From: an uncultured Clostridia bacterium
GTDB lineage: Bacteria; Bacillota; Clostridia; Oscillospirales; Acutalibacteraceae
Length of the DNA stretch: 64,000 nucleotides
Assembly (NCBI GenBank): GCA_944385105.1
Contig: CALWVR010000027.1
Span: 96,249-160,248, forward strand
Reading direction: 5' to 3'
Shown here: positions 6,699 to 62,993 of the stretch, in pieces
How the letters are laid out: the number at the start of each line of letters is the position of its first letter
Position numbering within the stretch: position 1 is the first letter of the stretch
Program-made: the position numbers and the translations under genes
Notes under the pieces: model-generated
Told to the model about the DNA's origin: nothing
The model's input: the letters and a program-made list of their open reading frames with translations, nothing else
The model's database searches: none

Positions 6699-7583
6699 AT
6701 GGCTGGAAATAAAATATTTAGGGATAAAGCTCTTGACACTGTCTCGAACCCAGAACAGCTGGACCAACATATAAGGATTACAAAACCATATGTATGGGTT
6801 ATTATGGTTGGTATAATAAGCTTAATTATTGGTGTAGGTGTATGGGCTTGTACAGGTGACGTGTCAACTGGAATTGATATAAATGGAGTTATATTCCCTG
6901 CACAAGGTGTAGCTATTACTGGTGCGTCACATGATGGCAGGGTAACGGATGTATTAGTAAAAGAAGGACAATCAGTGGAAAAGGGAGACATATTGTTGGT
7001 AGTTCCAGATGAAAATATACTTGCTCAAATTCAAGGGAAGCAAAATGCAACAAGCCAGGAACTTCAACTTCTTAAAAATCAATATGCTTTTAATTCATTT
7101 GTAAGAGCAGATAGGTCAGGTACAATTGATAGCATCGCGTCGATCGGTGACGAAGTTACTACTGGTGATACTTTATCTACCAATGTTCCTAATGATGCTA
7201 CTTCAAATTCAAGAGAGATACTAGCATATGTTCCATATACAGTTGCAAAAAGCATAAATGTTGGTGATAATGCAGAAGTTTCATTAAGCAATGCTCCAAG
7301 AGAAGAGTATGGCTATATGATAGGTACAGTAACTAGCGTTGGAACATCAGTTATTACTGAAGAGAGCATAATGAAAACTATGGGTACTATGAAATATGTA
7401 AGTTCATTAAATCTTTCTTCAGACTGCGTTGAAGTTAGAATAAGAATTAATGCTGATAGTTCAAGTGTCAGTGGATATGAATGGTCTAACGATAAAGGAA
7501 AGCAAATGAAGGTAGAGATTGGAGAGATATGCAATGTTAAAATTGTAGGGGCACCTGTAAGACCTATAGACTTGCTTTTCTAA
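6699..7583 (+). CDS. HlyD-family membrane-fusion/secretion adaptor (NHLP/Nif11 bacteriocin-system type)
   Basis: N-terminal cytoplasmic stretch ending NPEQLD, one TM helix (VWVIMVGIISLIIGVGVWA), then barrel-sandwich-like segments. It lies immediately upstream of two ABC exporters. Confidence 0.75.
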   Translation: MAGNKIFRDKALDTVSNPEQLDQHIRITKPYVWVIMVGIISLIIGVGVWACTGDVSTGIDINGVIFPAQGVAITGASHDGRVTDVLVKEGQSVEKGDILLVVPDENILAQIQGKQNATSQELQLLKNQYAFNSFVRADRSGTIDSIASIGDEVTTGDTLSTNVPNDATSNSREILAYVPYTVAKSINVGDNAEVSLSNAPREEYGYMIGTVTSVGTSVITEESIMKTMGTMKYVSSLNLSSDCVEVRIRINADSSSVSGYEWSNDKGKQMKVEIGEICNVKIVGAPVRPIDLLF

Positions 7584-7618: not shown

Positions 7619-9796
7619 ATGGCTTTTATGGGAGAAAAAATAAAAAATGTGCCGGTAATTCTCCAGATGGAGGCGCTAGAATGTGGTGCAGCTTCTCTTG
7701 CTATGATACTTGCAAACTTTGGTAAATATGTTCCACTTGAAAGATTGCGTATAGAATGTGGTGTTTCAAGGGATGGTTGTAATGCAAAAAATATTTTAGC
7801 AGCAGCCAGGCATAATGGACTTAAAGCAAAGGGATTTTCTTATAAAAATATAAATACATTAAAAGAGAGAGTAACACTTCCTGCGATAATTCACTGGAAT
7901 TTTAACCACTTTTTAGTATTACGTGGTTTTAAAGGAGAAAAGGCTTATTTAGCCGATCCGGCTTCAGGAAATAGAACAGTAAGCTTAGAAGAATTTGAAA
8001 AGTCATTTACAGGTATTGTTATGACTTTTGAACCTACAGAAGAGTTCGTAGCAGACGGACAAAAGAAAAGCGTTATTAGCTTCTTGCTAAATAGAATGAA
8101 AGGTGCATATATTCCGCTAGCTTTCGTATTACTAGCGAGTCTATTGTTAGCTTTCAGTTCTTCAATTACATCAATATTCTATCAGATATTTACGGATAGT
8201 ATACTGGTTGGTACAAATAGAGATTTTATGACACCATTATTATATGCGATGGGAGCAACTCTTGTAATCACATTTATTTTGTATTCGATGAAGTCAATAT
8301 ATCTTTTAAAGATACAAGGAAAAATGAGTGCAACTTCGGGATCAAAATTTATGTGGCATGTTTTAAGAATGCCTGTAGAGTTTTTCTCACAGCGACTAGT
8401 TGGTGACATTAGTTCAAGACAAAATAGTAACGATACTGTTTCAGAAATAATATGTAAGAAAGTAGCACCAATAGCACTTAATGTGGTTATGATATTTGTT
8501 TATTTAGCTATTTTGCTATTCTATGATTGGGCAATGACGCTTATAGGCGTAGTAGTAGCTATTATAAATGTTATTGTTATAAAACTTATTTCTAAACAGA
8601 ATGAGAATGACAACAAAGCACTCTCAAGAGATGGAGGTAAATTACAAGGAACCATTGCTGCGGGTGTAAGTATGATAGAAACAATAAAGTCAAGTGGGTG
8701 TGAAGCAGGATATTTCCAAAAAATAATAGGTTATCAAACTAAGTATAATAACTCACTTGAAAGGATAAGAGAGAGAAATGCATATGTAAACCAAATACCG
8801 TCTTTATTACAAAGTCTTGCAAATGCCGCAATATTATTTATAGGAGTTTACAATATATTAAAGGGTAACTTTACTATTGGTACATTGCAGGCTTTCCAAG
8901 GATTTATGTCGTCATTTTTGACACCTGTAAATGACTTGGTAGGTATAGGACAACAGATACAATCATCTAGTGGTGATATAGAGAAAATAGAGGATGTTTT
9001 AAATTATAAACCTGATGTTTATATAGACTTCTCAGAGACTAGTAAACCAGATTTTAATGAAAAAGTATATAAAAAGCTAGATGGTAACGTAGAGATACAA
9101 AACCTTTCATTCTCATATAGTCCTCTTGCTGAGAATTTAATTGAAGACTTTAGTCTATCTGTTAGTAAGGGACAAATGGTTGCATTAGTAGGAGGAAGTG
9201 GAAGCGGAAAATCTACTATAGCAAAACTTATAGCAGGTTTATATGAACCTACTAAGGGGAAGATTTTGTTTGACGGAAAAGAAATGAAAGACATAGATAG
9301 AAATGTATTTAGAAGCTCATTAGCCATGGTAAACCAAGAAATAACAATGTTCCAAGATACGATAAGAAATAACATTACAATGTGGGACGAGACTATAGGA
9401 GATGAAACACTTAAATTGGCTTGCCAGGACGCATGCATACATGAGGATATACTTCTAAGAGAACAAGGCTATGACTATGAATTGATAGAAAATGGTAAAG
9501 ACTTTTCAGGAGGACAACGTCAAAGATTTGAAATAGCAAGGTCATTTGTTATGGAGCCTACGATAATGTTATTAGATGAAGCAACGAGTGCCCTTGATCC
9601 AACAACAGAAAAGAAAGTTATGGATGCTGTAAAACGTAGGGGAATAACATGCTTTGTTGTTGCACATAGACTGTCTACTATTAGAGATGCAGATGAAATT
9701 ATAATGCTTGAAAAGGGAAAAGTAGTAGAAAGAGGAACTCATGAGCAATTAATTGAGTTAAACGGAAAATATGCAAACTTAGTAAAGAGTGAATAG
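7619..9796 (+). CDS. ABC exporter with N-terminal C39 double-glycine peptidase domain (peptidase/permease/ATPase)
   Basis: C39 catalytic Cys context QMEALECGAASLAMIL and His context IIHWNFNHFLVL. It has 6 TM segments, Walker A GGSGSGKST, signature FSGGQRQR and Walker B MLLDEATSALD. Confidence 0.92.
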   Translation: MAFMGEKIKNVPVILQMEALECGAASLAMILANFGKYVPLERLRIECGVSRDGCNAKNILAAARHNGLKAKGFSYKNINTLKERVTLPAIIHWNFNHFLVLRGFKGEKAYLADPASGNRTVSLEEFEKSFTGIVMTFEPTEEFVADGQKKSVISFLLNRMKGAYIPLAFVLLASLLLAFSSSITSIFYQIFTDSILVGTNRDFMTPLLYAMGATLVITFILYSMKSIYLLKIQGKMSATSGSKFMWHVLRMPVEFFSQRLVGDISSRQNSNDTVSEIICKKVAPIALNVVMIFVYLAILLFYDWAMTLIGVVVAIINVIVIKLISKQNENDNKALSRDGGKLQGTIAAGVSMIETIKSSGCEAGYFQKIIGYQTKYNNSLERIRERNAYVNQIPSLLQSLANAAILFIGVYNILKGNFTIGTLQAFQGFMSSFLTPVNDLVGIGQQIQSSSGDIEKIEDVLNYKPDVYIDFSETSKPDFNEKVYKKLDGNVEIQNLSFSYSPLAENLIEDFSLSVSKGQMVALVGGSGSGKSTIAKLIAGLYEPTKGKILFDGKEMKDIDRNVFRSSLAMVNQEITMFQDTIRNNITMWDETIGDETLKLACQDACIHEDILLREQGYDYELIENGKDFSGGQRQRFEIARSFVMEPTIMLLDEATSALDPTTEKKVMDAVKRRGITCFVVAHRLSTIRDADEIIMLEKGKVVERGTHEQLIELNGKYANLVKSE

Positions 9797-9808: not shown

Positions 9809-11995
9809 GTGAATTTTTCTGAAAAAGTAAAGGCAAAAAAGAAAGAAGAGAAGGAACAATATATACTTTCTTGTGAATTAATAGAAAAAGAGGCACTTGG
9901 ATTAAAAGACAAGAAACGTAAGTTACCTTCTGATATTAAAGAAAGACGAGGACAGTTACAAGAGGCAATAAACTTTGTTACACATTTTTATGATCTTGAT
10001 AGTATTGAGTTGCCAGAAAGGGCAGTTGGTAATGAATCTGAGATAGATACAGTTCTTGGAACTATAGGACTTACCAAGAGGAAAGTCGCTTTGACCAAAA
10101 AATGGTGGGTTAGAGGAGAAGGGCCAGTAATAGGTGTTGACCCTGATAATAATATAATTTGCTTAACCCCTCTTAAATTTGGTGGCTATAGCTATATAGA
10201 TCCAAAAACTAGAAAAGAGATTAGGGTAAGTAGAAGAAATGCAAAGAATATAGGGGGTACAGCATATTGTTTCTATAAACCATTCCCTATTAAATCAATG
10301 TCTATAAAAGACTTTATATTATATATGTTAAGATCTTTTACTAGATTTGACTTTGCATTCCTTGCCGTATTAGCATTATCGGCATCTTTGCTAGGTCTTA
10401 TTACCCCAGCTATAAACCAAATGATTTATAGTAATATTGTACCTTCAGGTAGAATAGACGATATTTTTCCACTAATATCACTAATGGTAGGTGCCATTAT
10501 AACAATAGTTATATTTAATTTGTTTGAAACTTTATGGATATTGAGGATAGGTGATAAAATACAGTTTAGTACGCAGGGAGCTTTGTGGATACGACTTCTT
10601 AATCTACCTATGAGTTTCTTTAAAGATTATAGCGCCGGTGACCTTACAATGCGTACGTTTAGTTTAAATTCAGTTTGTAATACAATTAGTAGTAGCCTAA
10701 TACCGTCTGTTTTAACAGCAGTATTCTCAGTTGTATATTTAGGACAGATAGCTTCTATTTCATCTGTACTACTAACACCTACAATCCTAATAATAATTGT
10801 AACCATCATTGTAATGCTATTAAATGGATACCTTAATGTAAAACTTAATAAGAAATCGAATGAATTATCACCAAAACTTTCAGGTCTTATTAACCAACTC
10901 TTTTCAGGTGTATCCAAAATAAAACTAGCAGGTGCAGAGGTTAGAGCTTTCGCAAAATGGTCTGACTTATACTCACAAATGGCTAAAATTAAATATAATC
11001 CAAATTTGTTTATAAAGATGTATTCAGCTGTTAATGCAGCGGTTAGCCTTGGTGGAACAATGTTACTATACTTTGTTGCATATCAAAACAACTTAGCTGT
11101 GGCTGACTTCATAGCATTTAATACAGCATATGGTTCATTTTCAGCAGCTATAACAAGAGTTGCGAGTATAGTTCTTGAAATAGCAAACTTAAAGCCTACG
11201 ATAGACTTGCTTGAACCTATATTTGAAGCAGTTCCAGAGGGAGGACAGTTAAAAACCAGAGTTGATGATATAACGGGAAAAATTGATATTAATAATCTTA
11301 AATTTAGATATACAAAAGATGGTCCTCTAATTATAAATGATCTTAATTTATCTATAAAACCTGGAGAATATTTGGGAATAGTTGGTTCTACAGGATGCGG
11401 TAAGTCTACATTGTTTAGACTACTGTTAGGTTTTGAGAAACCAGAATCAGGAGCTATATATTATGATAATAAAAACATGGAAAATTTAGATTTGCATAGT
11501 GTAAGAAGGCGCATAGGAATAGTACTACAAAATGGTTCCATGTTCTCAGATAGTATATATTCTAATATAACAATAACAAACCCTACAGCTTCAATGGATG
11601 AAGCATGGGAAGCAGCAGAGAAAGCTGGATGTGCTGATGACATAAAGTCTATGCCAATGGGTATGCATACTATGGTTTCAGAAGATGGAGGAGGCCTATC
11701 AGGAGGACAACGTCAAAGAATGATGATAGCAAGAGCCCTAATTTCGTCTCCACAATTACTAATGTTTGATGAAGCAACTAGTGCTCTTGATAATATTTCC
11801 CAGGCAACAGTTGTTGACACACTTGCAAAAATGGATATAACAAGAATTGTAATAGCACATAGACTTTCAACGATAAAGAAGTGCGATAGAATAATATACT
11901 TGCACAAAGGAAAGATAGTTGAAGAAGGAACTTACGATGAACTGATGAACCTAAATGGAAGATTTGCAGAACTTGCTAGAAGACAATTAGTGTAA
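9809..11995 (+). CDS. Second ABC exporter (permease/ATPase) lacking C39 catalytic motifs
   Basis: GTG start after GGAGGTG. The N-terminal domain of about 165 aa has no Cys/His peptidase motifs. A TM domain follows, then Walker A GSTGCGKST, signature LSGGQRQR and Walker B LMFDEATSALD. Confidence 0.9.
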   Translation: MNFSEKVKAKKKEEKEQYILSCELIEKEALGLKDKKRKLPSDIKERRGQLQEAINFVTHFYDLDSIELPERAVGNESEIDTVLGTIGLTKRKVALTKKWWVRGEGPVIGVDPDNNIICLTPLKFGGYSYIDPKTRKEIRVSRRNAKNIGGTAYCFYKPFPIKSMSIKDFILYMLRSFTRFDFAFLAVLALSASLLGLITPAINQMIYSNIVPSGRIDDIFPLISLMVGAIITIVIFNLFETLWILRIGDKIQFSTQGALWIRLLNLPMSFFKDYSAGDLTMRTFSLNSVCNTISSSLIPSVLTAVFSVVYLGQIASISSVLLTPTILIIIVTIIVMLLNGYLNVKLNKKSNELSPKLSGLINQLFSGVSKIKLAGAEVRAFAKWSDLYSQMAKIKYNPNLFIKMYSAVNAAVSLGGTMLLYFVAYQNNLAVADFIAFNTAYGSFSAAITRVASIVLEIANLKPTIDLLEPIFEAVPEGGQLKTRVDDITGKIDINNLKFRYTKDGPLIINDLNLSIKPGEYLGIVGSTGCGKSTLFRLLLGFEKPESGAIYYDNKNMENLDLHSVRRRIGIVLQNGSMFSDSIYSNITITNPTASMDEAWEAAEKAGCADDIKSMPMGMHTMVSEDGGGLSGGQRQRMMIARALISSPQLLMFDEATSALDNISQATVVDTLAKMDITRIVIAHRLSTIKKCDRIIYLHKGKIVEEGTYDELMNLNGRFAELARRQLV

Positions 11996-12664: not shown

Positions 12665-12680
12665 TAAAGGAGGAAAACTA

Positions 12681-15068: not shown

Positions 15069-15245
15069 GATAGATTGGTGTTTAAGTTAAAAAATGCAAT
15101 ATTATTATAAATAGAATAATATTGAATTTAAGGTCAACTTTTATACAAATAGGAAGTAATGTCTTTTAGAACAAATAAAAGTCTTGCAAGTATTGTAAGA
15201 AAGAGGTAGAGGTGTAATAATTATAAGATTAAGAAGGGAAATAAA

Positions 15246-15494: not shown

Positions 15495-15536
15495 AAGTAT
15501 AGTGAAAATTTTTATAAATTTAAGGAGGAAAATAAA

Positions 15537-15803
15537 ATGAAAAATGCTAAAGAATTTAAAGAGAGAATGCATGAAGAGGAATTTGCAAAGCTATTTAGCA
15601 ATGCAGAAACAGATGAGGATATAATAAAGATAGCCGCAGAGCAGGGCTATGAGATAACAAAAGAGGATATACAAAACTTTGAAATGACGGACGAAATGCT
15701 CGAATCCGTGGCTGGCGGAAAAAATGACCATTATGAAGCCGGTGGAAGTATAACTACTAATACCTATACGGATATAGAAATAAGCCCTAACATAGGTTTA
15801 TAA
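15537..15803 (+). CDS. Nif11-like-leader precursor (D-type leader); core KNDHYEAGGSITTNTYTDIEISPNIGL
   Basis: RBS AAGGAGGAAAATAAA and the conserved leader. A second internal GG lies 8 residues after the first. Confidence 0.9.
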   Translation: MKNAKEFKERMHEEEFAKLFSNAETDEDIIKIAAEQGYEITKEDIQNFEMTDEMLESVAGGKNDHYEAGGSITTNTYTDIEISPNIGL

Positions 15804-15845
15804 AATATTAGTAAAAAGCTTTATAAAATTAAGGAGGAAAATAAA

Positions 15846-16118
15846 ATGAAGAATGCTAAAGAATTTAAAGAAAGAATGCATGAAGAGGAATTTGCAAAAC
15901 TATTTAGCAATGCAGAAACAGATGAGGATATAATAAAGATAGCCGCAGAGCAGGGCTATGAGATAACAAAAGAGGATATACAAAACTTTGAAATGACGGA
16001 CGAAATGCTCGAATCCGTGGCTGGAGGGAAAAATGACGATTATAGTGCCGGTGGAAGTATAACTACTAATGACTATACGAATATAGAAATAAATCCGACT
16101 ATAAAAAAAGGTCTATAA
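15846..16118 (+). CDS. Nif11-like-leader precursor (D-type leader); core KNDDYSAGGSITTNDYTNIEINPTIKKGL
   Basis: The leader DNA differs from 15537 by only a handful of substitutions, while the core is diverged. Confidence 0.9.
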   Translation: MKNAKEFKERMHEEEFAKLFSNAETDEDIIKIAAEQGYEITKEDIQNFEMTDEMLESVAGGKNDDYSAGGSITTNDYTNIEINPTIKKGL

Positions 16119-16152
16119 TGAAAAATTTTGAAAAATTAAGGAGGAAAATAAA

Positions 16153-16419
16153 ATGAAAAATGCTAAAGAATTTAAAGAAAGAATGAATGAAGAGGAATTT
16201 GCAAAGCTATTTAGCAATGCAGAAACAGATGAGGATATAATAAGGATAGCCGCAGAACAGGGCTATGAGATAACAAAAGAGGATATACAAAACTTTGAAA
16301 TGACGGACGAAATGCTCGAATCCGTGGCTGGAGGGAAAGGTGACGATTATAGTGCCGGTGGAGATATAACCACTACCTCAAGTACGACGGTACAAATAAG
16401 TCCTAACATAGGTTTATAA
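16153..16419 (+). CDS. Nif11-like-leader precursor (D-type leader); core KGDDYSAGGDITTTSSTTVQISPNIGL
   Basis: RBS AAGGAGGAAAATAAA. Conserved leader ending SVAGG. Confidence 0.9.
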   Translation: MKNAKEFKERMNEEEFAKLFSNAETDEDIIRIAAEQGYEITKEDIQNFEMTDEMLESVAGGKGDDYSAGGDITTTSSTTVQISPNIGL

Positions 16420-16460
16420 AATAGCAGTAGGAAATTTTTAAAAGTAAGGAGAAGGATAAA

Positions 16461-16751
16461 GTGAAGAATGCTAAGGAATTTAAAGAAAGAATGCATGATG
16501 AGGAATTTGCAAAGCTATTTAGCAATGCAGAAACAGATGAGGAGATAATAAAGATAGCCGCAGAGCAGGGCTATGAGATAACAAAAGAGGATGTACAAGA
16601 CTTTGAAATGACGGATGAAATGCTCGAATCTGTGGCAGGGGGAAAAGGACTGTTTGGCAACAAAACTGATGAAATTCATGCAGAAGGAGAAGTAAACAGT
16701 ACTTCGAGTTTTAGTATAAATGGTGTAACTTTATTTACAAAGAAAAATTGA
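16461..16751 (+). CDS. Nif11-like-leader precursor (D-type leader); core KGLFGNKTDEIHAEGEVNSTSSFSINGVTLFTKKN
   Basis: GTG start after AAGGAGAAGG. Conserved leader and the longest core, which is unrelated to the others. Confidence 0.85.
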   Translation: MKNAKEFKERMHDEEFAKLFSNAETDEEIIKIAAEQGYEITKEDVQDFEMTDEMLESVAGGKGLFGNKTDEIHAEGEVNSTSSFSINGVTLFTKKN

Positions 16752-16839
16752 AATAATAGTAAAATTTTTGTTTAATAACTATAATAAGTGGCTTTTAATA
16801 TTAGAAGGTTTTATATTTAAATGTGAGAGGTGAAGAAAG

Positions 16840-17721
16840 TTGGGAGAAAATAAAAGAGAAAAGGAACTTCTCAAATCACTTGGGGCAGATGACAAGGTTT
16901 GTGAGGAGCTTTTAGAATACACTAAAAATAGATTTAATGTAGATGGATACGTGGAACAAGAAATAGAAGATGAACCATTTATCCAAATTTGGCGGAGAAT
17001 AGCTGATAGAAGCAAGAATGAACCTATAGAAGAGGTTATGAATGATGAAATACCTCATAGCGATAGTCCTATTAAACTAAAACACCCTGAACTAGTTAAT
17101 ATAGAAATATATAATTCTATAGCGGGAAATATACCTGTTATATATGCAAGGGATGAAGAGGACTTCTATGAAATAGTAAAGCAAATTATATATAAAGGTA
17201 AGGAAGCAAAAAATCTTGAGAAAACGGGTGCAAGTTTTGCTTATGGGAAAAACAATAAGTTTATTATTCTTTCAAATAAGCCATATAGTAATATTCAAGC
17301 GGAAAGTATAGGACTTGAAGAAGACCAGTGGAGAAGTTTTTCAGTTATTATAAGAAGAGAACATGAATGTACACACTATTTTACTAAGAGGTTTTTAGGG
17401 TCTTCTCAAAATAATATGCATGATGAGCTTATTGCTGACTTTGCAGGGATTACTTGCGCAATAGGGAAATTTAATGCTAAATGGTTTTTGATGGGCATGG
17501 GGATAGATAAGTATCCGCATGCTCAAGAAGATGGACGTTTTCCAGTTTATACGACTAGTTTATCAAATGAGGCTAAAGACATATTAAAGAGGATTATGGT
17601 AAAGGTAGCGTATAACGTTGAAAAATGGTCAGAATTAGAAGAGACTAAAATGATGAGTCGTAATGAAAGAGTACTGTTCTTGTGTAAAAATAGTATATTA
17701 GATCTTTATAAAATGTATTAG
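16840..17721 (+). CDS. Hypothetical 293-aa protein with zincin-like HExxH motif (REHECTHYF...MHDE); last gene of the peptide locus
   Basis: TTG start after GAGAGGTGAAG. It has HECTH followed 14 residues later by HDE, and no signal peptide or TM helix. I do not recognise the family. Confidence 0.6.
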   Translation: MGENKREKELLKSLGADDKVCEELLEYTKNRFNVDGYVEQEIEDEPFIQIWRRIADRSKNEPIEEVMNDEIPHSDSPIKLKHPELVNIEIYNSIAGNIPVIYARDEEDFYEIVKQIIYKGKEAKNLEKTGASFAYGKNNKFIILSNKPYSNIQAESIGLEEDQWRSFSVIIRREHECTHYFTKRFLGSSQNNMHDELIADFAGITCAIGKFNAKWFLMGMGIDKYPHAQEDGRFPVYTTSLSNEAKDILKRIMVKVAYNVEKWSELEETKMMSRNERVLFLCKNSILDLYKMY

Positions 17722-17749
17722 TATATTGATGAATTTTAATCTATAGGTA

Positions 17750-17785
17750 AAAAGTAGTCAAGGTAAGTATTGACTACTTTTTTAT
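17750..17785 (+). terminator. Rho-independent terminator closing the peptide locus
   Basis: Hairpin AGTAGTCA-loop-TGACTACT followed by TTTTT. Confidence 0.8.
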
Positions 17786-17802
17786 ATATAGAAAATTTTG
17801 TA

Positions 17803-17829
17803 ACACTAAGATTTAACTTACATATTATA
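17803..17829 (+). promoter_or_regulatory. Possible mother-cell (sigmaK-like) promoter
   Basis: An AC dinucleotide about 16 nt upstream of CATATTATA (consensus AC-N16/17-CATAnnnTA), in front of a coat-protein-like gene. This rests on pattern match only. Confidence 0.3.
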
Positions 17830-17860
17830 AGATGATAAGTTTTTTTTACATTTAGAATTT

Positions 17861-18574
17861 ATGGAGGTGCCAAGATTGGATAATTCAAACAATAACTTGC
17901 CCACAAATCCAAGTACTTTAAACCAACAAATGGACTTAGCAAGGATATATGGAATGAATATTGCTGATAATAACCTACCTACGGAAGGAACTATTGATGA
18001 CTATTCCCTGACACCAGTTCCTTCTTTAAATCAAGATTGTGCTAATTGTGCAGCAGAGAGCTTAAGTGAAGTATCGTTGCAGTTTCCACAATTAGAGCCA
18101 AATGATATGAACATAACAATGCCTAGAGCAGGTCAATCTAGTGAAACACAGAGAATAATGCAACAAAATAGGATAACAACTCCTCAAAGACAAATTGAAC
18201 AAACTTTACCTATAACAAATCCAACGACATCTAACTCAACGGGTAGCTCGAATACAACAACTAGCTCTGAAATGACGAGTAGCCCAATGACTATAAGTCA
18301 ACCAAATATGTTGTTTAATGAAAACGTAAATGGAAGTAATATAATGAATTTAGTTAATCCATGTGGAGACATGAACAATTTTTTAAGAACACAAATAGGA
18401 AAAGTATTGAATGTACAATTTTTATTGGGGACGAATGCGTTAGTAGAGAAAACAGGTGTTTTATTAGGAGTTGGAAGCAATTATATAGTGTTGAGAGATA
18501 GCGAAACTAATGATTTGATTTTATGCAACTTTGATGATATAAAATTTATACGCTTTGAAAATAATACACAGTAA
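17861..18574 (+). CDS. Spore coat protein GerQ-like (conserved C-terminal domain, Asn/Thr/Ser/Gln-rich N-terminus)
   Basis: The C-terminus GKVLNVQFLLGTNALVEKTGVLLGVGSNYIVLRDSETNDLILCNFDDIKFIRF resembles the GerQ/YwdL family pattern. The start may be TTG 17876, because ATGGAGGTG itself looks like the RBS. Confidence 0.45.
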   Translation: MEVPRLDNSNNNLPTNPSTLNQQMDLARIYGMNIADNNLPTEGTIDDYSLTPVPSLNQDCANCAAESLSEVSLQFPQLEPNDMNITMPRAGQSSETQRIMQQNRITTPQRQIEQTLPITNPTTSNSTGSSNTTTSSEMTSSPMTISQPNMLFNENVNGSNIMNLVNPCGDMNNFLRTQIGKVLNVQFLLGTNALVEKTGVLLGVGSNYIVLRDSETNDLILCNFDDIKFIRFENNTQ

Positions 18575-33114: not shown

Positions 33115-33152
33115 ATAAAAAATAGAGCACATTTATAATGTGCTCTATTTTT
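33115..33152 (-). terminator. Terminator of rnpB (palindrome AATAGAGCAC...GTGCTCTATT with flanking A/T runs)
   Basis: Perfect 10-bp stem with T-runs on both strands. Confidence 0.75.
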
Positions 33153-33500
33153 ATGACCAAACCTATAAGCCGAGTTCTGTTAAAAGCAATCATCTATCTT
33201 GGCTGAATGTTACCATTACAGCTCAGTGCCACCTTCTCGAGACGTATCGGGCAAATACAAAATGTCTCTCTGCGGTGTTGCTCCGGATAGGGTTTACAGA
33301 GCCGTATAGTCTCCTATACGCTGGTGAGCTCTTACCTCGCCTTTCCACCCTTACCTAAAAATTAGGCGGTATATTTCTGTTGCACTTTCCCTAGGGTCGC
33401 CCCCGGCGGCCGTTAGCCGTTATCCTGCCCTTTGGAGCTCGGACTTTCCTCGGGCAAAGCCTTTCAGCATTAATGTCCGCAATTGCTCAGTTTGCTCACA
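33153..33500 (-). ncRNA. rnpB: RNase P RNA (bacterial type B)
   Basis: A GC-rich island in AT-rich DNA. The reverse complement contains GAGGAAAGTCCGAGCTCC (P4 5' strand) and ACAGAACTCGGCTTATAG (P4 3' strand). The ends pair as P1, and TTGACA-18-TAGAAT lies upstream at about 33506-33535. The ends are approximate. Confidence 0.88.
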
Positions 33501-46288: not shown

Positions 46289-48229
46289 TTATATCTTTTT
46301 TAATTTAGGAATAATGAGAGATATAAAGGTCCAAAGAACATTGTATAAAATAAGTTCTGCCTCCTTCAATTGATTTAATCCAAAGTAAGGAAATAGTATA
46401 CATGTAATAGATAGACTTAAAAGTATGCAAACTACTTGAAAGAATATAGACATATTTATCTTAATATTAGCATTTCTACATAAACATAATGATTTAATAA
46501 GAGACTTTATATTACCAAATGAAGCTATTGAAGCAAATGTTCTACTGTATATTTTATTTTCAATTAATCTAGAATTTAAATTTTCCTCAAATGGTAATAT
46601 TTCGACTATTTCTTCAGAAATATTAAAGTCAAGTGATATTTTATACTTAGAAATATTGCAATCCACATTTCTTATAAGTAACTTTATGTTATTCTTTTCT
46701 AATAATTTTAAGTAATTTAGAAACTTTAAGTTAGGGATATATTCCAAGATAAACATGGCTACAAGTCTCTTACCGACTGCAAAATATGTTAGTTCACGAT
46801 TATTATTTCGGTATTTTTTTTCATAATCTCGGCTAGGGGGAGATATTCTATACTTCTTTAATAAATCTCTATTACCAACTAAAATTCTTTGTCCATTAAC
46901 CCAGCCCACAGCTCCAAGATTATCTTGATATTCAATATCAGAAGCTTTAGTTAGGATTGTTCGTTTTCCTAATATTATTTTATCAAACACTCTACACAAA
47001 GGACCATCAATAGCACATACAACGGCTGCAGCGGATAAGATTGCTTCATCTATTCTTTGCCCGTTAAATGTTTTTATTCCACGCAATACAACATTATCAG
47101 CAGGATAAAGTGAACATTCATTTAAGATTATAGAATTCATTTTAGAAATATTTTTTATACAATTTTCTCCTACAATCATAGAACCACTTTTTAAAGATTT
47201 TTTACAAAGGGAATTTACAAAGAAGTTTACACAAAAAGGAAAAGAAAAAGGAGTACAAATAAGTAGAGAAACGACTAATGAAGTAGTACCATAAATAACG
47301 TTAAAACTATTTATAAAACTAAATGCAAATATAAATATTGAAAAAGTTATTGTAAATGGAATAATTTTAGTAAAAATAGAGTCACTAAAAGAGAACGAAT
47401 TTGAGGAAGCTATAAACGACTGTAAAAAATTTGATTTAGCTTGGTATGCTACATTCAAAAAGTTTTTATTTGTAGCAGTAGTAATACAAGATAAATTGTA
47501 AGAATCTATTTGATATTTTTGCTTCTTAGAAGAAACGAATTTTAAATTTCTTATAATCCTTAATTTGATAAGTAGATAATTAAATACGACTATTAAGAAC
47601 TCAAAAATAAAAAGACCTACATATGACTCATAAAAGGCAGAGCTATTAGAATTATGAACGACTAATGTTGTACAATGTGTTAAAAGAGCAATACAAGATA
47701 AAAAAATAGCACAACTTGGTGTGAACTTTAATTTAATTAAAGATAGAAACCCATCTTTAAGTGTGCTAAAGCCAATAAGTACTGAGAGAAGATATAACAT
47801 ACATGAAATATATGTATATAGTTGTGTTATAGGAACATTAATAAAGCTTAGAAGCACAGAAGAATAACTAGTAATTATAATTGTGGACAAATATAATAAA
47901 AGCAAAATAGATAATCCAATTGACTGAAATTTTAAACTCTTAATCAATTTACGTAGTTCTGATTTAACTTTTGTATAGTCCTTCTCAGACTTATATTCAG
48001 TGTATTTATATGAGTCCTTGTTTATTAAGTAATTAGGTGCTTTATAACTATACGTATGTTTAGTAAACATATTTTTATCAATATTGTCATCTATTTCTAA
48101 TGGACTTGTATTATGAACATTTATCTTATTGTCAGACGTACTAAATATTTCTGTAAAATAATCTTTGCCTGGGGGCTTTTTAGAAAAACAAAAGGATCTT
48201 TTTTTTAATGAACGCAAAATATTACTCAT
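46289..48229 (-). CDS. Polytopic membrane protein related to P1B-type ATPases but lacking catalytic motifs
   Basis: The layout is collinear with heavy-metal P-type ATPases. NECSLY replaces DKTGT, NVDCN replaces TGDN, ICTPFSFPF replaces CPC-ALGLATP, and there is no TGES actuator domain. Confidence 0.5.
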   Translation of the reverse strand: MSNILRSLKKRSFCFSKKPPGKDYFTEIFSTSDNKINVHNTSPLEIDDNIDKNMFTKHTYSYKAPNYLINKDSYKYTEYKSEKDYTKVKSELRKLIKSLKFQSIGLSILLLLYLSTIIITSYSSVLLSFINVPITQLYTYISCMLYLLSVLIGFSTLKDGFLSLIKLKFTPSCAIFLSCIALLTHCTTLVVHNSNSSAFYESYVGLFIFEFLIVVFNYLLIKLRIIRNLKFVSSKKQKYQIDSYNLSCITTATNKNFLNVAYQAKSNFLQSFIASSNSFSFSDSIFTKIIPFTITFSIFIFAFSFINSFNVIYGTTSLVVSLLICTPFSFPFCVNFFVNSLCKKSLKSGSMIVGENCIKNISKMNSIILNECSLYPADNVVLRGIKTFNGQRIDEAILSAAAVVCAIDGPLCRVFDKIILGKRTILTKASDIEYQDNLGAVGWVNGQRILVGNRDLLKKYRISPPSRDYEKKYRNNNRELTYFAVGKRLVAMFILEYIPNLKFLNYLKLLEKNNIKLLIRNVDCNISKYKISLDFNISEEIVEILPFEENLNSRLIENKIYSRTFASIASFGNIKSLIKSLCLCRNANIKINMSIFFQVVCILLSLSITCILFPYFGLNQLKEAELILYNVLWTFISLIIPKLKKI

Positions 48230-54250: not shown

Positions 54251-54326
54251 GCTGGTGTAGCTCAGTTGGTAGAGCAGCTGATTTGTAATCAGCAGGTCGG
54301 GGGTTCAAGTCCGTCCACCAGCTCCA
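54251..54326 (+). tRNA. tRNA-Thr (anticodon UGU), CCA encoded
   Basis: Manual fold gives acceptor GCTGGTG/CACCAGC, a D arm GCTC-AGTTGGTA-GAGC, an anticodon stem GCTGA/TCAGC with loop TTTGTAA, a T loop TTCAAGT, and a 3' TCCA. There is one mismatch in the T stem. Confidence 0.88.
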
Positions 54327-54436
54327 TTTAGTTTATAGGGGTACAATATTGTTCCTTTAAGTAATTAATTAGCGTGAAGCTTTATATTTTTATTATAAGC
54401 TAACGTTTTAAATTAATAGATTCAGGGATTTTATTT

Positions 54437-54521
54437 GGGAGATTTCCCGAGTGGCCAAAGGGGGCAGACTGTAAATCTGTTGTCTCTGACTTCGGTGGTT
54501 CGAATCCACCATCTCCCACCA
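54437..54521 (+). tRNA. tRNA-Tyr (anticodon GUA), long variable arm, CCA encoded
   Basis: Acceptor GGGAGAT/ATCTCCC, anticodon loop CTGTAAA, a class II variable arm, and T arm GGTGG-TTCGAAT-CCACC. Confidence 0.9.
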
Positions 54522-55686: not shown

Positions 55687-55980
55687 ATGACATTTCAAGA
55701 ATTTATAGAAAAAAAACCTAACTTTATAAAGGAAGCAAAAAAATGTACTAGCGAAGAAGAATTTACTAATGTAGCTGAGGCATATGGAGTTAAATTTGGG
55801 AAAGACTCCTTTGATAAGGCGTATGAAATTATAGTTGGAGGTAAAGGAAAAACTAAACTTTCAGAAGATGCGTTAGATTCAGTTTCTGGTGGGACTAACA
55901 TAGAGGTAACTCAAGTTGATCTTGGTGGAATGTTTAAGGGAAATAATAATGAAAGTACTTTTATATTTAATATTAAATAG
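55687..55980 (+). CDS. Orphan Nif11-like-leader precursor; leader ends LSEDALDSVSGG; core TNIEVTQVDLGGMFKGNNNESTFIFNIK
   Basis: The 69-aa leader has EEEFTNVAEAYGVKFGKDSFD (Nif11-like) and the LSEDALDSVSGG cleavage motif. The 28-aa core has no Cys and looks beta-strand-prone. Confidence 0.75.
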   Translation: MTFQEFIEKKPNFIKEAKKCTSEEEFTNVAEAYGVKFGKDSFDKAYEIIVGGKGKTKLSEDALDSVSGGTNIEVTQVDLGGMFKGNNNESTFIFNIK

Positions 55981-58278: not shown

Positions 58279-59931
<1,653 letters not shown>

Positions 59932-59975
59932 AAGAAAATTTGAATAACTGTCATATGTGCAGATATGATAGTAAC

Positions 59976-60006
59976 AAAAAAGGAGGCTTTTGGCCTCCCT
60001 TTTTTG
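59976..60006. terminator. Bidirectional terminator (groEL and the convergent GG-leader peptide gene)
   Basis: A-run, GGAGGC-TTTTG-GCCTCC, then T-run. Confidence 0.85.
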
Positions 60007-60023
60007 TTGTCTAATTAAGAGTT

Positions 60024-60290
60024 CTAGTTTTCCCTAGCCATAGTATTATATAGGTGAGTATAATATTGAGCTTTTTCCTCGTTCTCCTTGGTATAATTAT
60101 ATTGACAAGCGTCTGCAAAATGATTTGCCATTTCCTTAAAATACTCTTGGGTTTGTTGCTTATTATAGTTGGTAACTTCCATAAAGTCTGCAATCTCTTG
60201 CTTAGTTTCCTGTTCGCCAAAATTGAAGTTTGCAGAACCTGCAAAACCTCCACTTACATTGTCTAAATTATTAAGGTCTAATTTTTTCAT
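60024..60290 (-). CDS. Double-glycine-leader secreted peptide/protein, 88 aa (15-aa leader MKKLDLNNLDNVSGG plus 73-aa acidic mature part)
   Basis: The leader is a classic class-II-bacteriocin/peptide-pheromone type (L..xxLxxVSGG). RBS is AAAGGATG and a terminator follows. Confidence 0.75.
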   Translation of the reverse strand: MKKLDLNNLDNVSGGFAGSANFNFGEQETKQEIADFMEVTNYNKQQTQEYFKEMANHFADACQYNYTKENEEKAQYYTHLYNTMAREN

Positions 60291-60510
60291 GTTTACACAT
60301 CCTTTCTTTGTATAGATATATTATACCAAATATATTTTAAAAAGCCCATAATTTTATTAAAATATTTTATAAAATATAAAATTTAATAATATTTAAAAGG
60401 AAAGACCAATATTTTATTTAAATATACTCAAAGTGCCTATGAATTTAGTGATGGATGAAATATATTAAAAAATTTAGATAATGTATTACGTGTATAGATA
60501 TGATTGTAAC

Positions 60511-60540
60511 AAAAAAGGAGGATAAAATCCTCCCTTTTTA
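60511..60540 (-). terminator. Terminator of the second GG-leader gene
   Basis: GGAGGA-TAAAA-TCCTCC with A/T runs. It is paralogous to the terminator at 59976. Confidence 0.8.
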
Positions 60541-60834
60541 TTACCACATTCCATGTAAATTTTGATCATATTTTCCCATTTCCATTGAATTATATAAGTG
60601 CGAATAATACTGAGCTTGTTTTAAACTTTTTTCATCTTGAGATATCTTATACGCGAAATTAAGGTCATCTGCCATGGCTTCAAGATATTGTAGCGTTTCA
60701 TACCTATCACCGTCGAAGGAGTCAATCCAACCATTGATTTCTTCTAAAGTTTCTGCTTCTCCGAAATTAAATTCATCGTAACCTTTAAGACCGCCACTAA
60801 TATTATCTAAATTATTAAGATCTAATTTTTTCAT
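60541..60834 (-). CDS. Double-glycine-leader secreted peptide/protein, 97 aa (leader MKKLDLNNLDNISGG plus 82-aa acidic mature part)
   Basis: Paralog of 60024. Shared motifs are FNFGE.ET..EI and AQYY(T/S)HLYN(T/S)M. Confidence 0.75.
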   Translation of the reverse strand: MKKLDLNNLDNISGGLKGYDEFNFGEAETLEEINGWIDSFDGDRYETLQYLEAMADDLNFAYKISQDEKSLKQAQYYSHLYNSMEMGKYDQNLHGMW

Positions 60835-61469
60835 GTTTACACATCCTTTCTTTATGTAGTTATATTATACTAAAAACACTTTAAAGAATCAATAATTTTA
60901 TTAATAACATTTTATAAATATAAAATATTATTATTCAAAAGACAAAATTAATATTTTATTAAAATATACTTTAAATGCCTATGAATTCAGTAATGATCGG
61001 GGAATATTAATGAACCTTAGTTCTAAAGTTTATATTTAGGATTCATTAAAATTTTAGTAGCTAATGCAAGGTAATATTTGTATTTAGAATCCTCGTGATA
61101 TGTTGATGGAAAGTTTTCGGCAAAAACAGCTCTATGGGTACAGTGTTTCATATGCTCAAGAAGCTTTTTATAGAGCTGTCATGCTATTAGCTTAAGCTTG
61201 CTTAGCCAATAATCTATTTCCTTATTTCTTTAATTATATAAGTATATTATATCCCAATATGTGAAGAAAAAATAAGTATGTATAAAAATATTTTCTATAC
61301 ATACTAAGTTTGGTAAAATATTAACAGCGTAATATAAGTTCCTTAAAAATGCACTAATATTTTAGGTCTGATAATTAATAAATAAGTTTCTAAATATGTG
61401 AGTTAAAAAGTTAAGCATATTTAAAATCTATTTTTATTCTTTATATAAAACCTAAAATGTTATGATAAT

Positions 61470-62993
61470 TTAAGCTTTCGTAAGACTGCGGAACCATTTA
61501 ATTTCTTCTCTACTTAATGTTCCGGAAAGAATTAAGAAGATAATATATAATATGATACTAATTGTAATTTCAATAGATACCTTAATTATAATTGACTGAG
61601 ATATATTACGAGAAAGAATGGTGAGAGCAAAAGTTGAGATAGAAGAACATAAAATGGGAGTTATGATCCAGTCGTTTATATTAATCTTTAAATGTGTAAC
61701 TTTTAAAAGGCGATTTATACTGAGAGTAGAATTTAGTATTGTGCTTGTAAAGACCATAATAATAAGTCCATTTATACCTATAAGAGGAAGTAAGATAAAG
61801 ATTAAAATAACTCTAATTATGGAGTCTATTATGTTATAAGACAGGTAAGAAAGCTGTTCGTTTAGTCCTTTTAACATACCATCAACAATTTTATCAAGAT
61901 ACATGAGTGGGACAAGAGGGGCAAATATACTTAGGTATATTCCACATTCTTTGCTTGAATATATACATTCGCCTAGATCTTTTGCAAAGAATATGAAAAT
62001 ATTCATAATCATTATAGAAAACAGCAAAGTTAGTTTAATTATTCTCGAAGCCATATAATGTATATTTTTTTTATGATTTATAATGTTTGCCTCAGACATC
62101 TCAGGGAGTATAAGCATAGAAAATGATACTAAAAATAATGTTGGGAAGCTTATGATGGGCATTACCATACCAGTAATCATACCATATATGGATAATGCTG
62201 AATATGAAGATGCTCCGTATTTCTTAAGTCCCGAAGGGATGAGTATATTTTCCACGCTACTTAGTCCTGCACGCAAAGATGCACTACCTGTTAAAGGGAA
62301 AAACAATTTAATTATTTTTGAAAAAAGTTTGTTTTTACTTTGGTTGGTTACTTTAATGTCTTTTACATCTGTAGAGTAAAGTATATATGAGTAAATACAA
62401 GAAAGTATTTCTGATATAGTAGTACCAGCTACAATGGCAGCGCATGCATATTCTATACCCATAGGGGCCATCTTACCAATTAATACAATAAATATTAAAA
62501 TTTCAATAATTTGTTCAAGCAGTTGCTCACTTGCAGTTTTAATTACCTTTCTAACTGCATAAAAGTATCCTCTAAAGCATGAAGATATAGCTACAAAAGG
62601 TAAGCTTGGGGCTAATATTTTTAGAGAAAGAATGGAATTATGATCGTGTATTATATAATTACCTATTTGTTCGGCAAATATAAACATAATACTTCCTGCC
62701 AATAAGCTTATTATAATTCCTAAAGTAAGACATTTTCTTATAGTGGATTTAGCCTTGTCATATTGCCTTTGAGCTATGAAATCAGTTACTAGGCGTGTAA
62801 CAGTAAGACTAATGCCAGTCGTTGAAAAGGTAGCAGCAAAAAAGTAAATTGATATTACAAGTTGATATAGTCCAATGCCTTGTGCTCCTACTTTATTTGA
62901 CATATATATCCTGAATAGTATGCCAATAGTCATATTTATAATGGACGTAAGAGAAAGTAGAAATGCATTTATTAAGAAGGTTTTCTTTTTCAT
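61470..62993 (-). CDS. spoVB: Stage V sporulation protein B / MurJ-like MOP-family flippase
   Basis: 507 aa with about 14 TM segments. The N-terminus FLINAFLLSLTSIINMTIGILFRIYMSNKVGAQGIGLYQLV is typical of SpoVB. Confidence 0.75.
   Translation of the reverse strand: MKKKTFLINAFLLSLTSIINMTIGILFRIYMSNKVGAQGIGLYQLVISIYFFAATFSTTGISLTVTRLVTDFIAQRQYDKAKSTIRKCLTLGIIISLLAGSIMFIFAEQIGNYIIHDHNSILSLKILAPSLPFVAISSCFRGYFYAVRKVIKTASEQLLEQIIEILIFIVLIGKMAPMGIEYACAAIVAGTTISEILSCIYSYILYSTDVKDIKVTNQSKNKLFSKIIKLFFPLTGSASLRAGLSSVENILIPSGLKKYGASSYSALSIYGMITGMVMPIISFPTLFLVSFSMLILPEMSEANIINHKKNIHYMASRIIKLTLLFSIMIMNIFIFFAKDLGECIYSSKECGIYLSIFAPLVPLMYLDKIVDGMLKGLNEQLSYLSYNIIDSIIRVILIFILLPLIGINGLIIMVFTSTILNSTLSINRLLKVTHLKININDWIITPILCSSISTFALTILSRNISQSIIIKVSIEITISIILYIIFLILSGTLSREEIKWFRSLTKA

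What the first reader, a model, noticed from the sequence alone, without database searches (positions are those of the whole stretch)
59950..61010. Tandem pair of short-GG-leader genes encoding unusually long acidic mature domains
Seen in sequence: two paralogous minus-strand genes (88 aa and 97 aa) start with MKKLDLNNLDN(V/I)SGG. This is a textbook 15-aa double-glycine leader. The predicted mature parts are 73 aa and 82 aa, net acidic, and rich in Glu, Gln, Tyr and Asn. They lack a hydrophobic or cationic segment and share the blocks FNFGE.ET..EI and AQYY(T/S)HLYN(T/S)M. The whole unit is duplicated in tandem: terminator, gene, and about 170 bp of AT-rich upstream region containing short direct repeats. 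It sits directly behind groEL. No immunity gene, dedicated transporter or two-component system is adjacent. Established knowledge: GG leaders direct cleavage and export by C39-ABC transporters, and typical cargoes are small cationic or hydrophobic bacteriocins or pheromones. Inference: these are non-bacteriocin-like secreted proteins using the GG pathway, possibly through the 7619 exporter, with unknown function.
Basis: partly seen in the sequence, partly recalled or inferred. Interest (0 to 1): 0.7.

Follow-up and report, generated by a model that had tools for sequence, protein, structure and literature searches.

The report
Orphan double-glycine-leader acidic secreted protein pair
Two tandem genes found in only one gut Clostridia lineage encode small acidic helical proteins whose 15-residue N-terminus matches the cleavage-and-export signal used by a peptide exporter 50 kb away, so they are probably secreted proteins of unknown function, not classical bacteriocins.

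Summary
Two minus-strand paralogues, A88 (60024-60290) and B97 (60541-60834), both start MKKLDLNNLDN(V/I)SGG and sit in a tandem unit of about 540 bp behind groEL. The leader carries the residues a LahT-type C39 protease needs: L-12, L-7, V/I-4 and GG. A motif built only from the window's 14 Nif11-type precursors hits the six-frame translation 16 times: those 14 plus these two (0.1 expected). The C39 domain of the 7619 exporter is 62% identical to LahT150, which needs only the last 13 leader residues. The leader is under strong purifying selection (dN/dS 0.03), while the middle of the protein drifts freely. The mature parts (8.8 and 9.8 kDa, pI 4.7 and 4.2, no hydrophobic stretch) are predicted as a confident three-helix bundle. 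Nothing resembles them in sequence or fold. An exhaustive search of 1.84 billion representative proteins found only the two proteins themselves. The most likely reading is orphan substrates of the NHLP-type exporter at 6699-11995, cleaved after Gly15 and secreted. Their extracellular role is unknown. Cargo of 73-82 residues is within the known exporter range. This is a new member of a known kind and moderately interesting. Export itself is not proven.

The parts
60024..60290 (-). Gene A88 (88 aa). Leader codons are at 60246-60290 (MKKLDLNNLDNVSGG). The mature 73-aa acidic domain is at 60027-60245.
   Evidence: ORF. Paralogy. Charge and pI. AlphaFold2 predicts a three-helix bundle (H26-40, H44-64, H68-87) with core pLDDT 90-94 and pTM 0.71.
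60541..60834 (-). Gene B97 (97 aa). Leader codons are at 60790-60834 (MKKLDLNNLDNISGG). The mature 82-aa acidic domain is at 60544-60789.
   Evidence: ORF. AlphaFold2 predicts helices H26-39, H44-65 and H68-85, with core pLDDT 84-90 and a disordered leader.
59982..59998 (.). Bidirectional intrinsic terminator shared by groEL (+) and A88 (-).
   Evidence: GC-rich stem flanked by an A-run and a T-run.
60517..60533 (.). Intrinsic terminator of B97, homologous to the one after A88.
   Evidence: aligned.
60291..60425 (-). Conserved upstream region of A88. It holds an extended -10 box (TGGTATAAT, 60328-60320), an RBS (AAAGGA, 60305-60300) and an AT-rich region with a palindrome.
   Evidence: The two units are 73-90% identical here, although synonymous sites are saturated. 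Sequence.
60835..60967 (-). Conserved upstream region of B97. It holds -35 TTGATT (60892-60887), a 17-nt spacer and -10 TATAAT (60869-60864), with the same RBS and 5' UTR as A88.
59889..59933 (+). The true 3' end of groEL (...[10 protein letters not shown] stop), which forms the first segment of the tandem unit.
   Evidence: groEL ORF at 58300-59931; used as the reference copy.
60426..60470 (+). Degenerate relic of the groEL 3' end, lying between the B97 terminator and the A88 upstream region.
   Evidence: 29 of 45 nt identical to the groEL tail. It ties for the best non-self match among about 128,000 positions and is in register with the repeat.
60968..61012 (+). Second relic of the groEL 3' end, at the outer edge of the B97 unit, with no gene copy beyond it.
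   Evidence: 29 of 45 nt identical. No third gene copy was found by tblastn.
6699..7583 (+). HlyD-like secretion protein of the NHLP-type export cassette (proposed exporter, part 1).
   Evidence: TIGR03794 at 159.2 bits against a cut-off of 156.2; HlyD_3 and Biotin_lipoyl_2.
7619..9796 (+). C39 peptidase ABC exporter, LahT-like: the proposed leader protease and pump.
   Evidence: Peptidase_C39 at E 2.7e-34. TIGR03796 at 944 bits against 853. The N-terminal domain is 62% identical to LahT150, PDB 6MPZ.
9809..11995 (+). Second ABC subunit of the cassette, without a recognisable C39 domain.
   Evidence: TIGR03797 at 734.8 bits against 709.4; no Peptidase_C39 hit.

Best explanation
A88 and B97 are pre-proteins with a minimal 15-residue double-glycine leader.

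Proposed mechanism:
1. Each gene is transcribed on its own, from a sigma-A-type promoter to its own intrinsic terminator.
2. In the cytoplasm, the short leader helix docks on the C39 peptidase domain of the LahT-like exporter encoded at 7619-9796. Docking uses L-12, L-7 and V/I-4.
3. The protease cuts after Gly15.
4. The unfolded cargo of 8.8 or 9.8 kDa is pumped out by the NHLP-type cassette. That cassette comprises a HlyD-like protein (6699-7583), the ABC1 peptidase-exporter (7619-9796) and ABC2 (9809-11995).
5. Outside the cell the cargo folds into a soluble acidic three-helix bundle.

The bundle probably acts by binding a partner through its conserved face, rich in Tyr and His (FNFGE.ET..EI plus AQYYxHLYNxM). 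The fast-evolving middle helix would tune specificity. It is unlikely to insert into membranes as a classical bacteriocin does.

Shown directly: the gene anatomy, the leader determinants, the presence and completeness of the exporter, the selection pattern, and the absence of homologues. Inferred: cleavage, export through this particular exporter, and any extracellular role.
For: 1. **Leader motif.** A motif defined only by the residues seen in the window's 14 Nif11-type precursors, [ILVM]x4Lx2[IV][SAL]GG, occurs 16 times in the six-frame translation of the 64 kb. Those are the 14 precursors plus A88 and B97. Shuffles give 0.1.
2. **Leader position.** The motif sits at residues 4-15, directly after the only possible start codon.
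3. **Exporter cassette.** All three cassette genes pass their NCBIfam equivalog cut-offs: TIGR03796 at 944 bits against 853, TIGR03797 at 735 against 709, and TIGR03794 at 159 against 156.
4. **Protease domain.** The protease domain is 62% identical to LahT150 (PDB 6MPZ), E 9e-54. The catalytic Cys and His are kept. So is the Ile that LahT uses to contact V-4 (PMC6959990).
5. **LahT150 requirements.** LahT150 needs only the last 13 leader residues. Positions -4, -7 and -12 are critical, while -3, -5 and -8 are dispensable (PMC6363468). The leader here has all the critical residues.
6. **Selection.** dN/dS is 0.03 in the leader, about 0.9 in codons 35-72 and 0.08 in the C-terminal block, with dS saturated.
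7. **Fold.** AlphaFold2 leaves residues 1-15 disordered and outside the fold.
8. **Cargo size.** PCAT specificity lies in the leader alone, and the PCAT1 cavity is about 15,000 cubic angstroms (PMC6959990). Scaled from CtA, these cargos need about 10,000-11,200. [quoted passage not shown]
9. **Dispersed substrates.** A Nif11-type precursor lies at 55687-55980, only 4 kb away, with the leader end LDSVSGG. A related MAG carries five GG-leader genes, four of them with hydrophilic cargos of 43-70 aa, next to its SpoVB-like gene.
Against: - There is no experimental evidence of cleavage or secretion.
- The exporter is 50 kb away, and only 64 kb of the genome could be inspected. Another transporter, or none, may serve these genes.
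- The generic GG-leader model TIGR01847 scores below its cut-off, and E-8 is absent.
- A fast-folding helical bundle could resist export.
- With only two sequences, the AlphaFold2 model and the dN/dS estimates rest on little data.
- The extracellular role is a guess, because nothing resembles the cargo in sequence or fold.
Confidence: 0.55

Rival explanations
1. They are small acidic cytoplasmic proteins, for example DNA mimics or regulator-binding proteins. The N-terminus resembles a GG leader by coincidence, and they are never cleaved or exported.
For: Strong acidity, a helical bundle and the absence of any hydrophobic segment are typical of cytoplasmic mimic or adaptor proteins. No transporter is adjacent. 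TIGR01847 is below its cut-off.
Against: The motif occurs nowhere else in about 128,000 six-frame residues except in bona fide exporter substrates. It sits exactly at the N-terminus. It is the most strongly conserved part of the protein (dN/dS 0.03), yet lies outside the predicted fold.
Confidence: 0.15
2. They are exported as proposed but act as antimicrobial proteins: an anionic bacteriocin or a two-component pair. The immunity gene would be elsewhere in the genome.
For: They have a GG leader. They form a tandem pair with a rapidly diverging middle region, as in bacteriocin loci. Their size is under 10 kDa.
Against: They have no cationic, amphipathic or hydrophobic segment, and pI is 4.2-4.7. 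They hit no bacteriocin family in Pfam or NCBIfam. No immunity-like membrane protein is nearby. Each gene has its own promoter and terminator, whereas two-peptide bacteriocins normally share an operon.
Confidence: 0.15
3. They are precursors of signalling peptides. After export, the bundle is trimmed, and a short piece such as the divergent C-terminal tail acts as a pheromone.
For: GG leaders export pheromones such as ComC and BlpC (PMC7595303, listed). The C-terminal tails differ completely: MAREN against MEMGKYDQNLHGMW.
Against: There is no histidine kinase, response regulator or RNPP-type receptor nearby. The predicted domain is well folded and carries conserved blocks, unlike a disposable pro-region.
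Confidence: 0.08
4. The ORFs are chance reading frames in a duplicated intergenic spacer and encode nothing.
For: They are seen in a single lineage only.
Against: Both copies keep an open frame, the ribosome-binding site, the promoter and the terminator, although synonymous sites are saturated. Two blocks are under purifying selection. The fold prediction is confident. The overlapping alternative ORFs are not conserved between the two units.
Confidence: 0.02

Closest known systems
Substrates of LahT, the AMS/PCAT transporter of Lachnospiraceae bacterium C6A11 (LahA peptides; protease domain LahT150, PDB 6MPZ)
   Same: The window's exporter protease is 62% identical to LahT150. The leader ends of A88 and B97 carry the L-12, L-7, V/I-4 and GG determinants mapped for LahT150 (PMC6363468). 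LahT150 accepts leaders cut down to 13-14 residues, and it tolerates very diverse cargo.
   Different: LahA peptides have Nif11-type leaders of about 60 residues, sit in the transporter's own gene cluster and have short core peptides. A88 and B97 have a bare 15-residue leader, lie 50 kb from the exporter, and carry cargo of 73-82 residues that is predicted to fold.
CtA, the substrate of PCAT1 from Clostridium thermocellum
   Same: CtA is a GG-leader protein of a Clostridium. It has a long cargo (66 residues) and is recognised through the leader only, via the -12/-7 hydrophobic knot and position -4 (PMC6959990).
   Different: CtA has a 24-residue leader and was not detected as similar to A88/B97 in the PDB sequence search. 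Its exporter is a single homodimeric PCAT, not an ABC1/ABC2/HlyD cassette.
Colicin V and class II microcins (MccV type I secretion system)
   Same: Colicin V has a 15-residue GG leader and an unmodified cargo of about 88 residues (my own knowledge). Export depends on the leader and on cargo length, not on charge (PMC10231218).
   Different: Microcins belong to Gram-negative bacteria, are hydrophobic or Gly-rich antibacterials, and are encoded with immunity and export genes. A88 and B97 are strongly acidic and hydrophilic and have no immunity gene nearby.
Nif11-type (N11P) RiPP precursors with the NHLP export cassette (Haft et al. 2010, PMC2887384)
   Same: They share the same predicted exporter and the same cleavage motif. 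Precursor genes of this kind can be numerous per genome.
   Different: A88 and B97 have no Nif11 domain. TIGR03798 hits the window's precursors but not these two proteins. No modifying enzyme is in sight, and the cargo is Cys-poor and predicted to fold.

Membership tests
Double-glycine-leader substrates of C39 peptidase ABC exporters (PCAT/AMS) | N-terminal leader of about 14-30 residues ending in Gly-Gly (or GA/GS) | tested here: met
   Both proteins have a 15-residue leader ending SGG, and no upstream start codon is possible.
Double-glycine-leader substrates of C39 peptidase ABC exporters (PCAT/AMS) | Hydrophobic residues at -4, -7 and -12, the positions shown by mutagenesis to be required by LahT150, PCAT1 and ComA | tested here: met
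   V/I-4, L-7 and L-12 are present, as is M-15. The requirement comes from PMC6363468 and PMC6959990.
Double-glycine-leader substrates of C39 peptidase ABC exporters (PCAT/AMS) | Score at or above the cut-off of the curated leader model TIGR01847 (15.7 bits), including the consensus Glu at -8 | tested here: not met
   B97 scores 10.5 bits and A88 is not reported. Position -8 is Asn. In LahT150, Glu-8 is dispensable.
Double-glycine-leader substrates of C39 peptidase ABC exporters (PCAT/AMS) | A cognate C39-ABC exporter with an intact catalytic Cys and His in the same genome | tested here: met
   The product of 7619-9796 hits Peptidase_C39 at E 2.7e-34 and TIGR03796 at 944 bits. The Cys and His align with those of LahT150. 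The exporter is not adjacent; it lies 50 kb away.
Double-glycine-leader substrates of C39 peptidase ABC exporters (PCAT/AMS) | Demonstrated cleavage after GG and ATP-dependent export | not testable with these tools
   This needs an in vitro protease assay or a secretome analysis.
Class II (unmodified) bacteriocins | Cationic and/or hydrophobic, membrane-active mature peptide | tested here: not met
   pI is 4.7 and 4.2, charge is -6 and -11, and the highest 19-residue hydropathy mean is 0.05.
Class II (unmodified) bacteriocins | Adjacent immunity gene and membership of a known bacteriocin family | tested here: not met
   No small membrane-protein gene lies nearby. There are no Pfam or NCBIfam bacteriocin hits.
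Nif11-type RiPP precursors (TIGR03798 / PF07862) | Nif11-like leader domain of about 60 residues | tested here: not met
   A88 and B97 give no hit, whereas the window precursor at 15846-16118 scores 49.4 bits.
GG-type peptide pheromones (ComC/BlpC-like) | Short mature peptide encoded next to its histidine kinase and response regulator | tested here: not met
   The mature parts are 73 and 82 aa, and no two-component genes lie within about 5 kb.

The most novel reading that the evidence does not exclude
In this poorly sampled group of gut Clostridia, the LahT/NHLP-type exporter may act as a general secretion route for small folded proteins that are not antimicrobial, and not only as a RiPP or bacteriocin pump. 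A88 and B97 would then be the first members of a new class of secreted acidic three-helix effectors, for example binders of a host, phage or competitor molecule. Their genes are scattered around the chromosome and diversify in the middle helix.
Probability: 0.25. Interest if true: 0.6.

Novelty: new member of a known kind. Interest (0 to 1): 0.4.

Why it matters
Peptidase-containing ABC exporters are mostly studied as bacteriocin, pheromone and RiPP pumps. This pair is a clean in-silico case of something different. It has a minimal 15-residue leader, an orphan chromosomal location, and a folded, strongly acidic cargo of 9-10 kDa with no relatives. The co-resident exporter is closely related to LahT150, the best-characterised substrate-tolerant GG protease. 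That makes this a convenient test of whether these exporters also secrete small soluble proteins in gut anaerobes. It also offers a natural minimal secretion tag. The wider importance is limited, because the family is known from a single lineage and its function is unknown.

Tried and rejected
**Homologue searches**
- The word-indexed search of 5.8 billion protein clusters returned only the query for each protein.
- A profile HMMER search of 1.84 billion representative proteins found only the two proteins themselves.
- Back-translated pattern scans found no relative in the GTDB species genomes, JGI metagenomes or IMG/VR viral contigs.
- The only other occurrences are two short ENA metagenome contigs of the same strain, 100% and 99.9% identical, so they give no comparative information.

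**Family libraries**
- Pfam, NCBIfam, PHROGs and PADLOC gave nothing above threshold.
- A88 had a sub-threshold hit to the IMEF encapsulin ferritin-like cargo model TIGR04536: 21 bits against a cut-off of 100. B97 did not share it. I treated it as compositional.
- The weak PADLOC hits, at E 3.5e-4 and 7e-3, were also confined to A88 and were treated the same way.

**Structure**
- A PDB sequence search gave nothing better than E 0.57.
- Foldseek runs of both models against the PDB, and of the B97 model against BFVD, gave no match below E 0.4. The hits were generic helical bundles.

**Synteny**
- The closest genomes have a SpoVB-like protein only 64-67% identical and do not keep the groEL/SpoVB-like arrangement.

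**Third gene copy, regulation and RNA**
- tblastn found no third copy or pseudogene in 61010-61470.
- The conserved upstream words do not recur at other GG-precursor genes in the window.
- Rfam found no RNA family in the region.

**Other ideas considered**
- SASP and WXG100 were considered from memory. They were dropped for lack of any family hit or WXG motif.
- A radical-SAM or other RiPP modification was rejected. No such enzyme is nearby, and the only radical-SAM protein in the window is RlmN.
Full report
**1. The observation**

The ORF list shows two minus-strand genes. A88 lies at 60024-60290 (88 aa) and B97 at 60541-60834 (97 aa). Each starts at the first start codon after an in-frame stop, with MKKLDLNNLDN(V/I)SGG. 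They align without gaps over 84 residues at 45% identity, E 5e-25.

After Gly15 the proteins are 73 and 82 residues long, with masses of 8.76 and 9.76 kDa. Their pI is 4.69 and 4.22 and their net charge is -6 and -11. No stretch approaches membrane-like hydropathy. Conserved residues cluster in FNFGE.ET..EI, just before and into helix 1, and in AQYYxHLYNxM in helix 3.

The overlapping ORFs in other frames, and the hydrophobic antisense ORF at 60054-60266, are not conserved between the two units. I take them as artefacts.

**2. Anatomy of the repeat**

The two units align at the DNA level over about 540 bp (families D1-D6). Each unit contains:
- a GC-rich hairpin terminator flanked by an A-run and a T-run (59982-59998, shared with the convergent groEL, and 60517-60533);
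- the gene;
- a 5' UTR with an AAAGGA ribosome-binding site that is identical in both units;
- a perfect TATAAT -10 box (TGGTATAAT in unit A; TTGATT-17-TATAAT in unit B);
- roughly 130 bp of AT-rich upstream DNA.

The last 45 nt of groEL (59889-59933) were compared with all of about 128,000 positions on both strands. The two best non-self matches, 29 of 45 each, are exactly the two in-register sites in front of each upstream region, at 60426 and 60968. The next best match anywhere is 27, and then 25.

The duplicated segment therefore carried the groEL tail. This means the ancestral gene already sat behind groEL and the array grew in place. The third relic, which has no gene behind it, implies at least two duplication events or a lost third unit. 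tblastn finds no third gene copy.

The 'short direct repeats' in the upstream DNA are AT-rich words not clearly above chance, with 5 matches against 2.2 expected.

**3. Selection pattern**

| Region | dN | dS | dN/dS |
|---|---|---|---|
| Leader, codons 1-15 | 0.027 | 0.86 | 0.03 |
| Codons 35-72 | about 0.8 | saturated | about 0.9 |
| Codons 73-84 | 0.109 | 1.38 | 0.08 |

Nucleotide identity is 89% in the leader and 56% in the mature region. It is 73-90% in the core promoter and upstream blocks but only 64% in the groEL relic.

The duplication is therefore old. The leader, the C-terminal block and the regulatory DNA are held by purifying selection, and the middle of the protein is nearly free to vary. 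These estimates rest on two sequences and short segments, so they are indicative only.

**4. Is the N-terminus a real export leader?**

The window holds a complete NHLP-type export cassette. All three genes pass their NCBIfam equivalog cut-offs:

| Gene | Product | Model | Score (bits) | Cut-off (bits) |
|---|---|---|---|---|
| 6699-7583 | HlyD-like protein | TIGR03794 | 159 | 156 |
| 7619-9796 | C39 peptidase ABC exporter | TIGR03796 | 944 | 853 |
| 9809-11995 | Second ABC subunit, no C39 hit | TIGR03797 | 735 | 709 |

Thirteen Nif11-like GG precursors follow at 12025-16751. One more orphan precursor lies at 55687-55980.

From those 14 precursors alone I took the residues seen at -12, -7, -4, -3, -2 and -1. 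That gives the motif [ILVM]x4Lx2[IV][SAL]GG. In the six-frame translation of the whole window it matches 16 times: the 14 precursors plus A88 and B97, and nothing else. Shuffled sequence gives 0.1 matches. A looser pattern restricted to ORF N-termini added only two obvious false hits.

The protease domain of the 7619 product is 62% identical to LahT150 (PDB 6MPZ), E 9e-54. The catalytic Cys and His are aligned. By my count of the alignment, Ile137 of LahT is conserved as Ile133 here. PMC6959990 names that residue as the contact for V-4 of the substrate.

Two papers define what such a protease needs:
- For LahT150 (PMC6363468), the last 13 leader residues suffice. Positions -4, -7 and -12 are critical. 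Positions -3, -5 and -8 can be changed freely.
- For PCAT1 (PMC6959990), the -7/-12 'hydrophobic knot' and position -4 carry recognition. The cargo makes no specific contact, so specificity lies in the leader alone.

A88 and B97 have L-12, L-7, V/I-4 and GG. The missing Glu-8 explains the sub-threshold TIGR01847 score (10.5 bits against 15.7), but it should not matter to a LahT-type enzyme.

**5. Can the cargo be exported?**

The CtA cargo of PCAT1 is 66 residues, about 9,000 cubic angstroms, in a cavity of about 15,000. Scaled linearly, these cargos need about 10,000 and 11,200 cubic angstroms. In the MccV system, export was limited by length, with 66 aa exported and 116 aa exported poorly. 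It did not correlate with charge (PMC10231218). So cargo of 73-82 acidic residues lies within the known range, and 'unusually long' is an overstatement.

The window's own cluster cargos are also mostly acidic or neutral and free of Cys. A related MAG (L003) carries five GG-leader genes beside its SpoVB-like gene. Four have hydrophilic cargos of 43-70 residues, and one has a short 24-residue leader. Dispersed GG genes with hydrophilic cargos therefore look like a habit of this lineage.

**6. The cargo itself**

AlphaFold2 was run with only the two paralogues as alignment. It gives a three-helix bundle for both:
- A88: helices 26-40, 44-64 and 68-87, core pLDDT 90-94, pTM 0.71.
- B97: helices 26-39, 44-65 and 68-85, core pLDDT 84-90.

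Residues 1-15 are disordered and lie outside the fold in both models.

No similar fold stands out. Foldseek against the PDB and BFVD gives only generic helical bundles with E above 0.4. No sequence relative exists in any resource searched, and no family library gives a credible hit. The genes are seen in one NCBI assembly and in two metagenome contigs of the same strain.

The near-contiguous conservation of AQYYxHLYNxM covers more than one face of helix 3. That suggests a functional surface and not only a structural core. This is my inference, and its ligand is unknown.

**7. Verdict**

The most likely reading is that A88 and B97 are orphan substrates of the LahT-like NHLP exporter. They would be cleaved after Gly15 and secreted as soluble acidic three-helix proteins. 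They fail the defining features of class II bacteriocins, Nif11-type precursors and GG pheromones. They meet the experimentally defined features of GG-leader substrates.

The main rival is a cytoplasmic acidic protein whose N-terminus resembles a leader by coincidence. The specificity, position and conservation of the motif make that unlikely but do not exclude it.

This is a new, single-lineage cargo family for a known export mechanism. It is moderately interesting, mainly as a test of whether these exporters secrete small folded proteins in gut Clostridia. The source organism's nearest sequenced relatives are uncultured human-gut Clostridia MAGs and Clostridium sp. CAG:557, with a SpoVB-like protein 64-67% identical.

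Noticed in passing
window 5514-18574: This is a large NHLP/Nif11-type locus. It holds a HlyD-like gene (6699-7583), a C39-ABC exporter (7619-9796), a second ABC gene (9809-11995) and 13 tandem Nif11-like GG precursors (12025-16751). The precursors have Cys-free cores of 18-35 aa, rich in Thr, Tyr and Asn. A DUF7005 protein follows (16840-17721, E 1.2e-69), then a 237-aa protein with no family hit (17861-18574). No recognisable RiPP-modifying enzyme is present, so DUF7005 is a candidate modifier.
   Followed up: partly
window 55687-55980 (+): An orphan Nif11-like GG precursor of 97 aa, with leader end LSEDALDSVSGG and a 28-aa core. It lies 44 kb from the exporter and 4 kb from A88/B97. A homologue-like gene is present in the related MAG at L003:9019-9291.
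   Followed up: partly
L003 7564-9291 (-): A related gut MAG (CAKSIH010000002.1) has five GG-leader ORFs directly after its SpoVB-like gene. Four have Nif11-like leaders and one has a 24-aa leader. Four of the cargos are 43-70 aa and hydrophilic or acidic, and none of the five has a significant Pfam domain. Three of the cargos seem to share an (S/T)xEDEA... motif followed by probable beta-strands.
   Followed up: partly
window 12645-12872 (+): A 75-aa ORF has a Nif11-like N-terminal part but no GG site or core; it ends ...DISTGS. It may be a decayed precursor within the array.
   Followed up: no
window 59889-59933, 60426-60470, 60968-61012: The last 45 nt of groEL have two degenerate copies (29 of 45 identical each) in register with the tandem unit. 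These are the two best non-self matches in the whole window. The array therefore arose in place by duplications that included the groEL tail.
   Followed up: yes
window 46289-48229 (-): A 646-aa ORF has no Pfam family at E 1e-4.
   Followed up: no
L006 7959-12358 (-): In Clostridium sp. CAG:557, an NHLP-type ABC2/ABC1 exporter pair lies directly beside the SpoVB-like gene. The same neighbourhood therefore holds exporter genes in one relative and GG-cargo genes in others.
   Followed up: no
window 33150-33498 (-); 54251-54521 (+): RNase P RNA (269 bits), and tRNA-Thr(TGT) plus tRNA-Tyr(GTA). These are ordinary housekeeping RNAs.
   Followed up: yes
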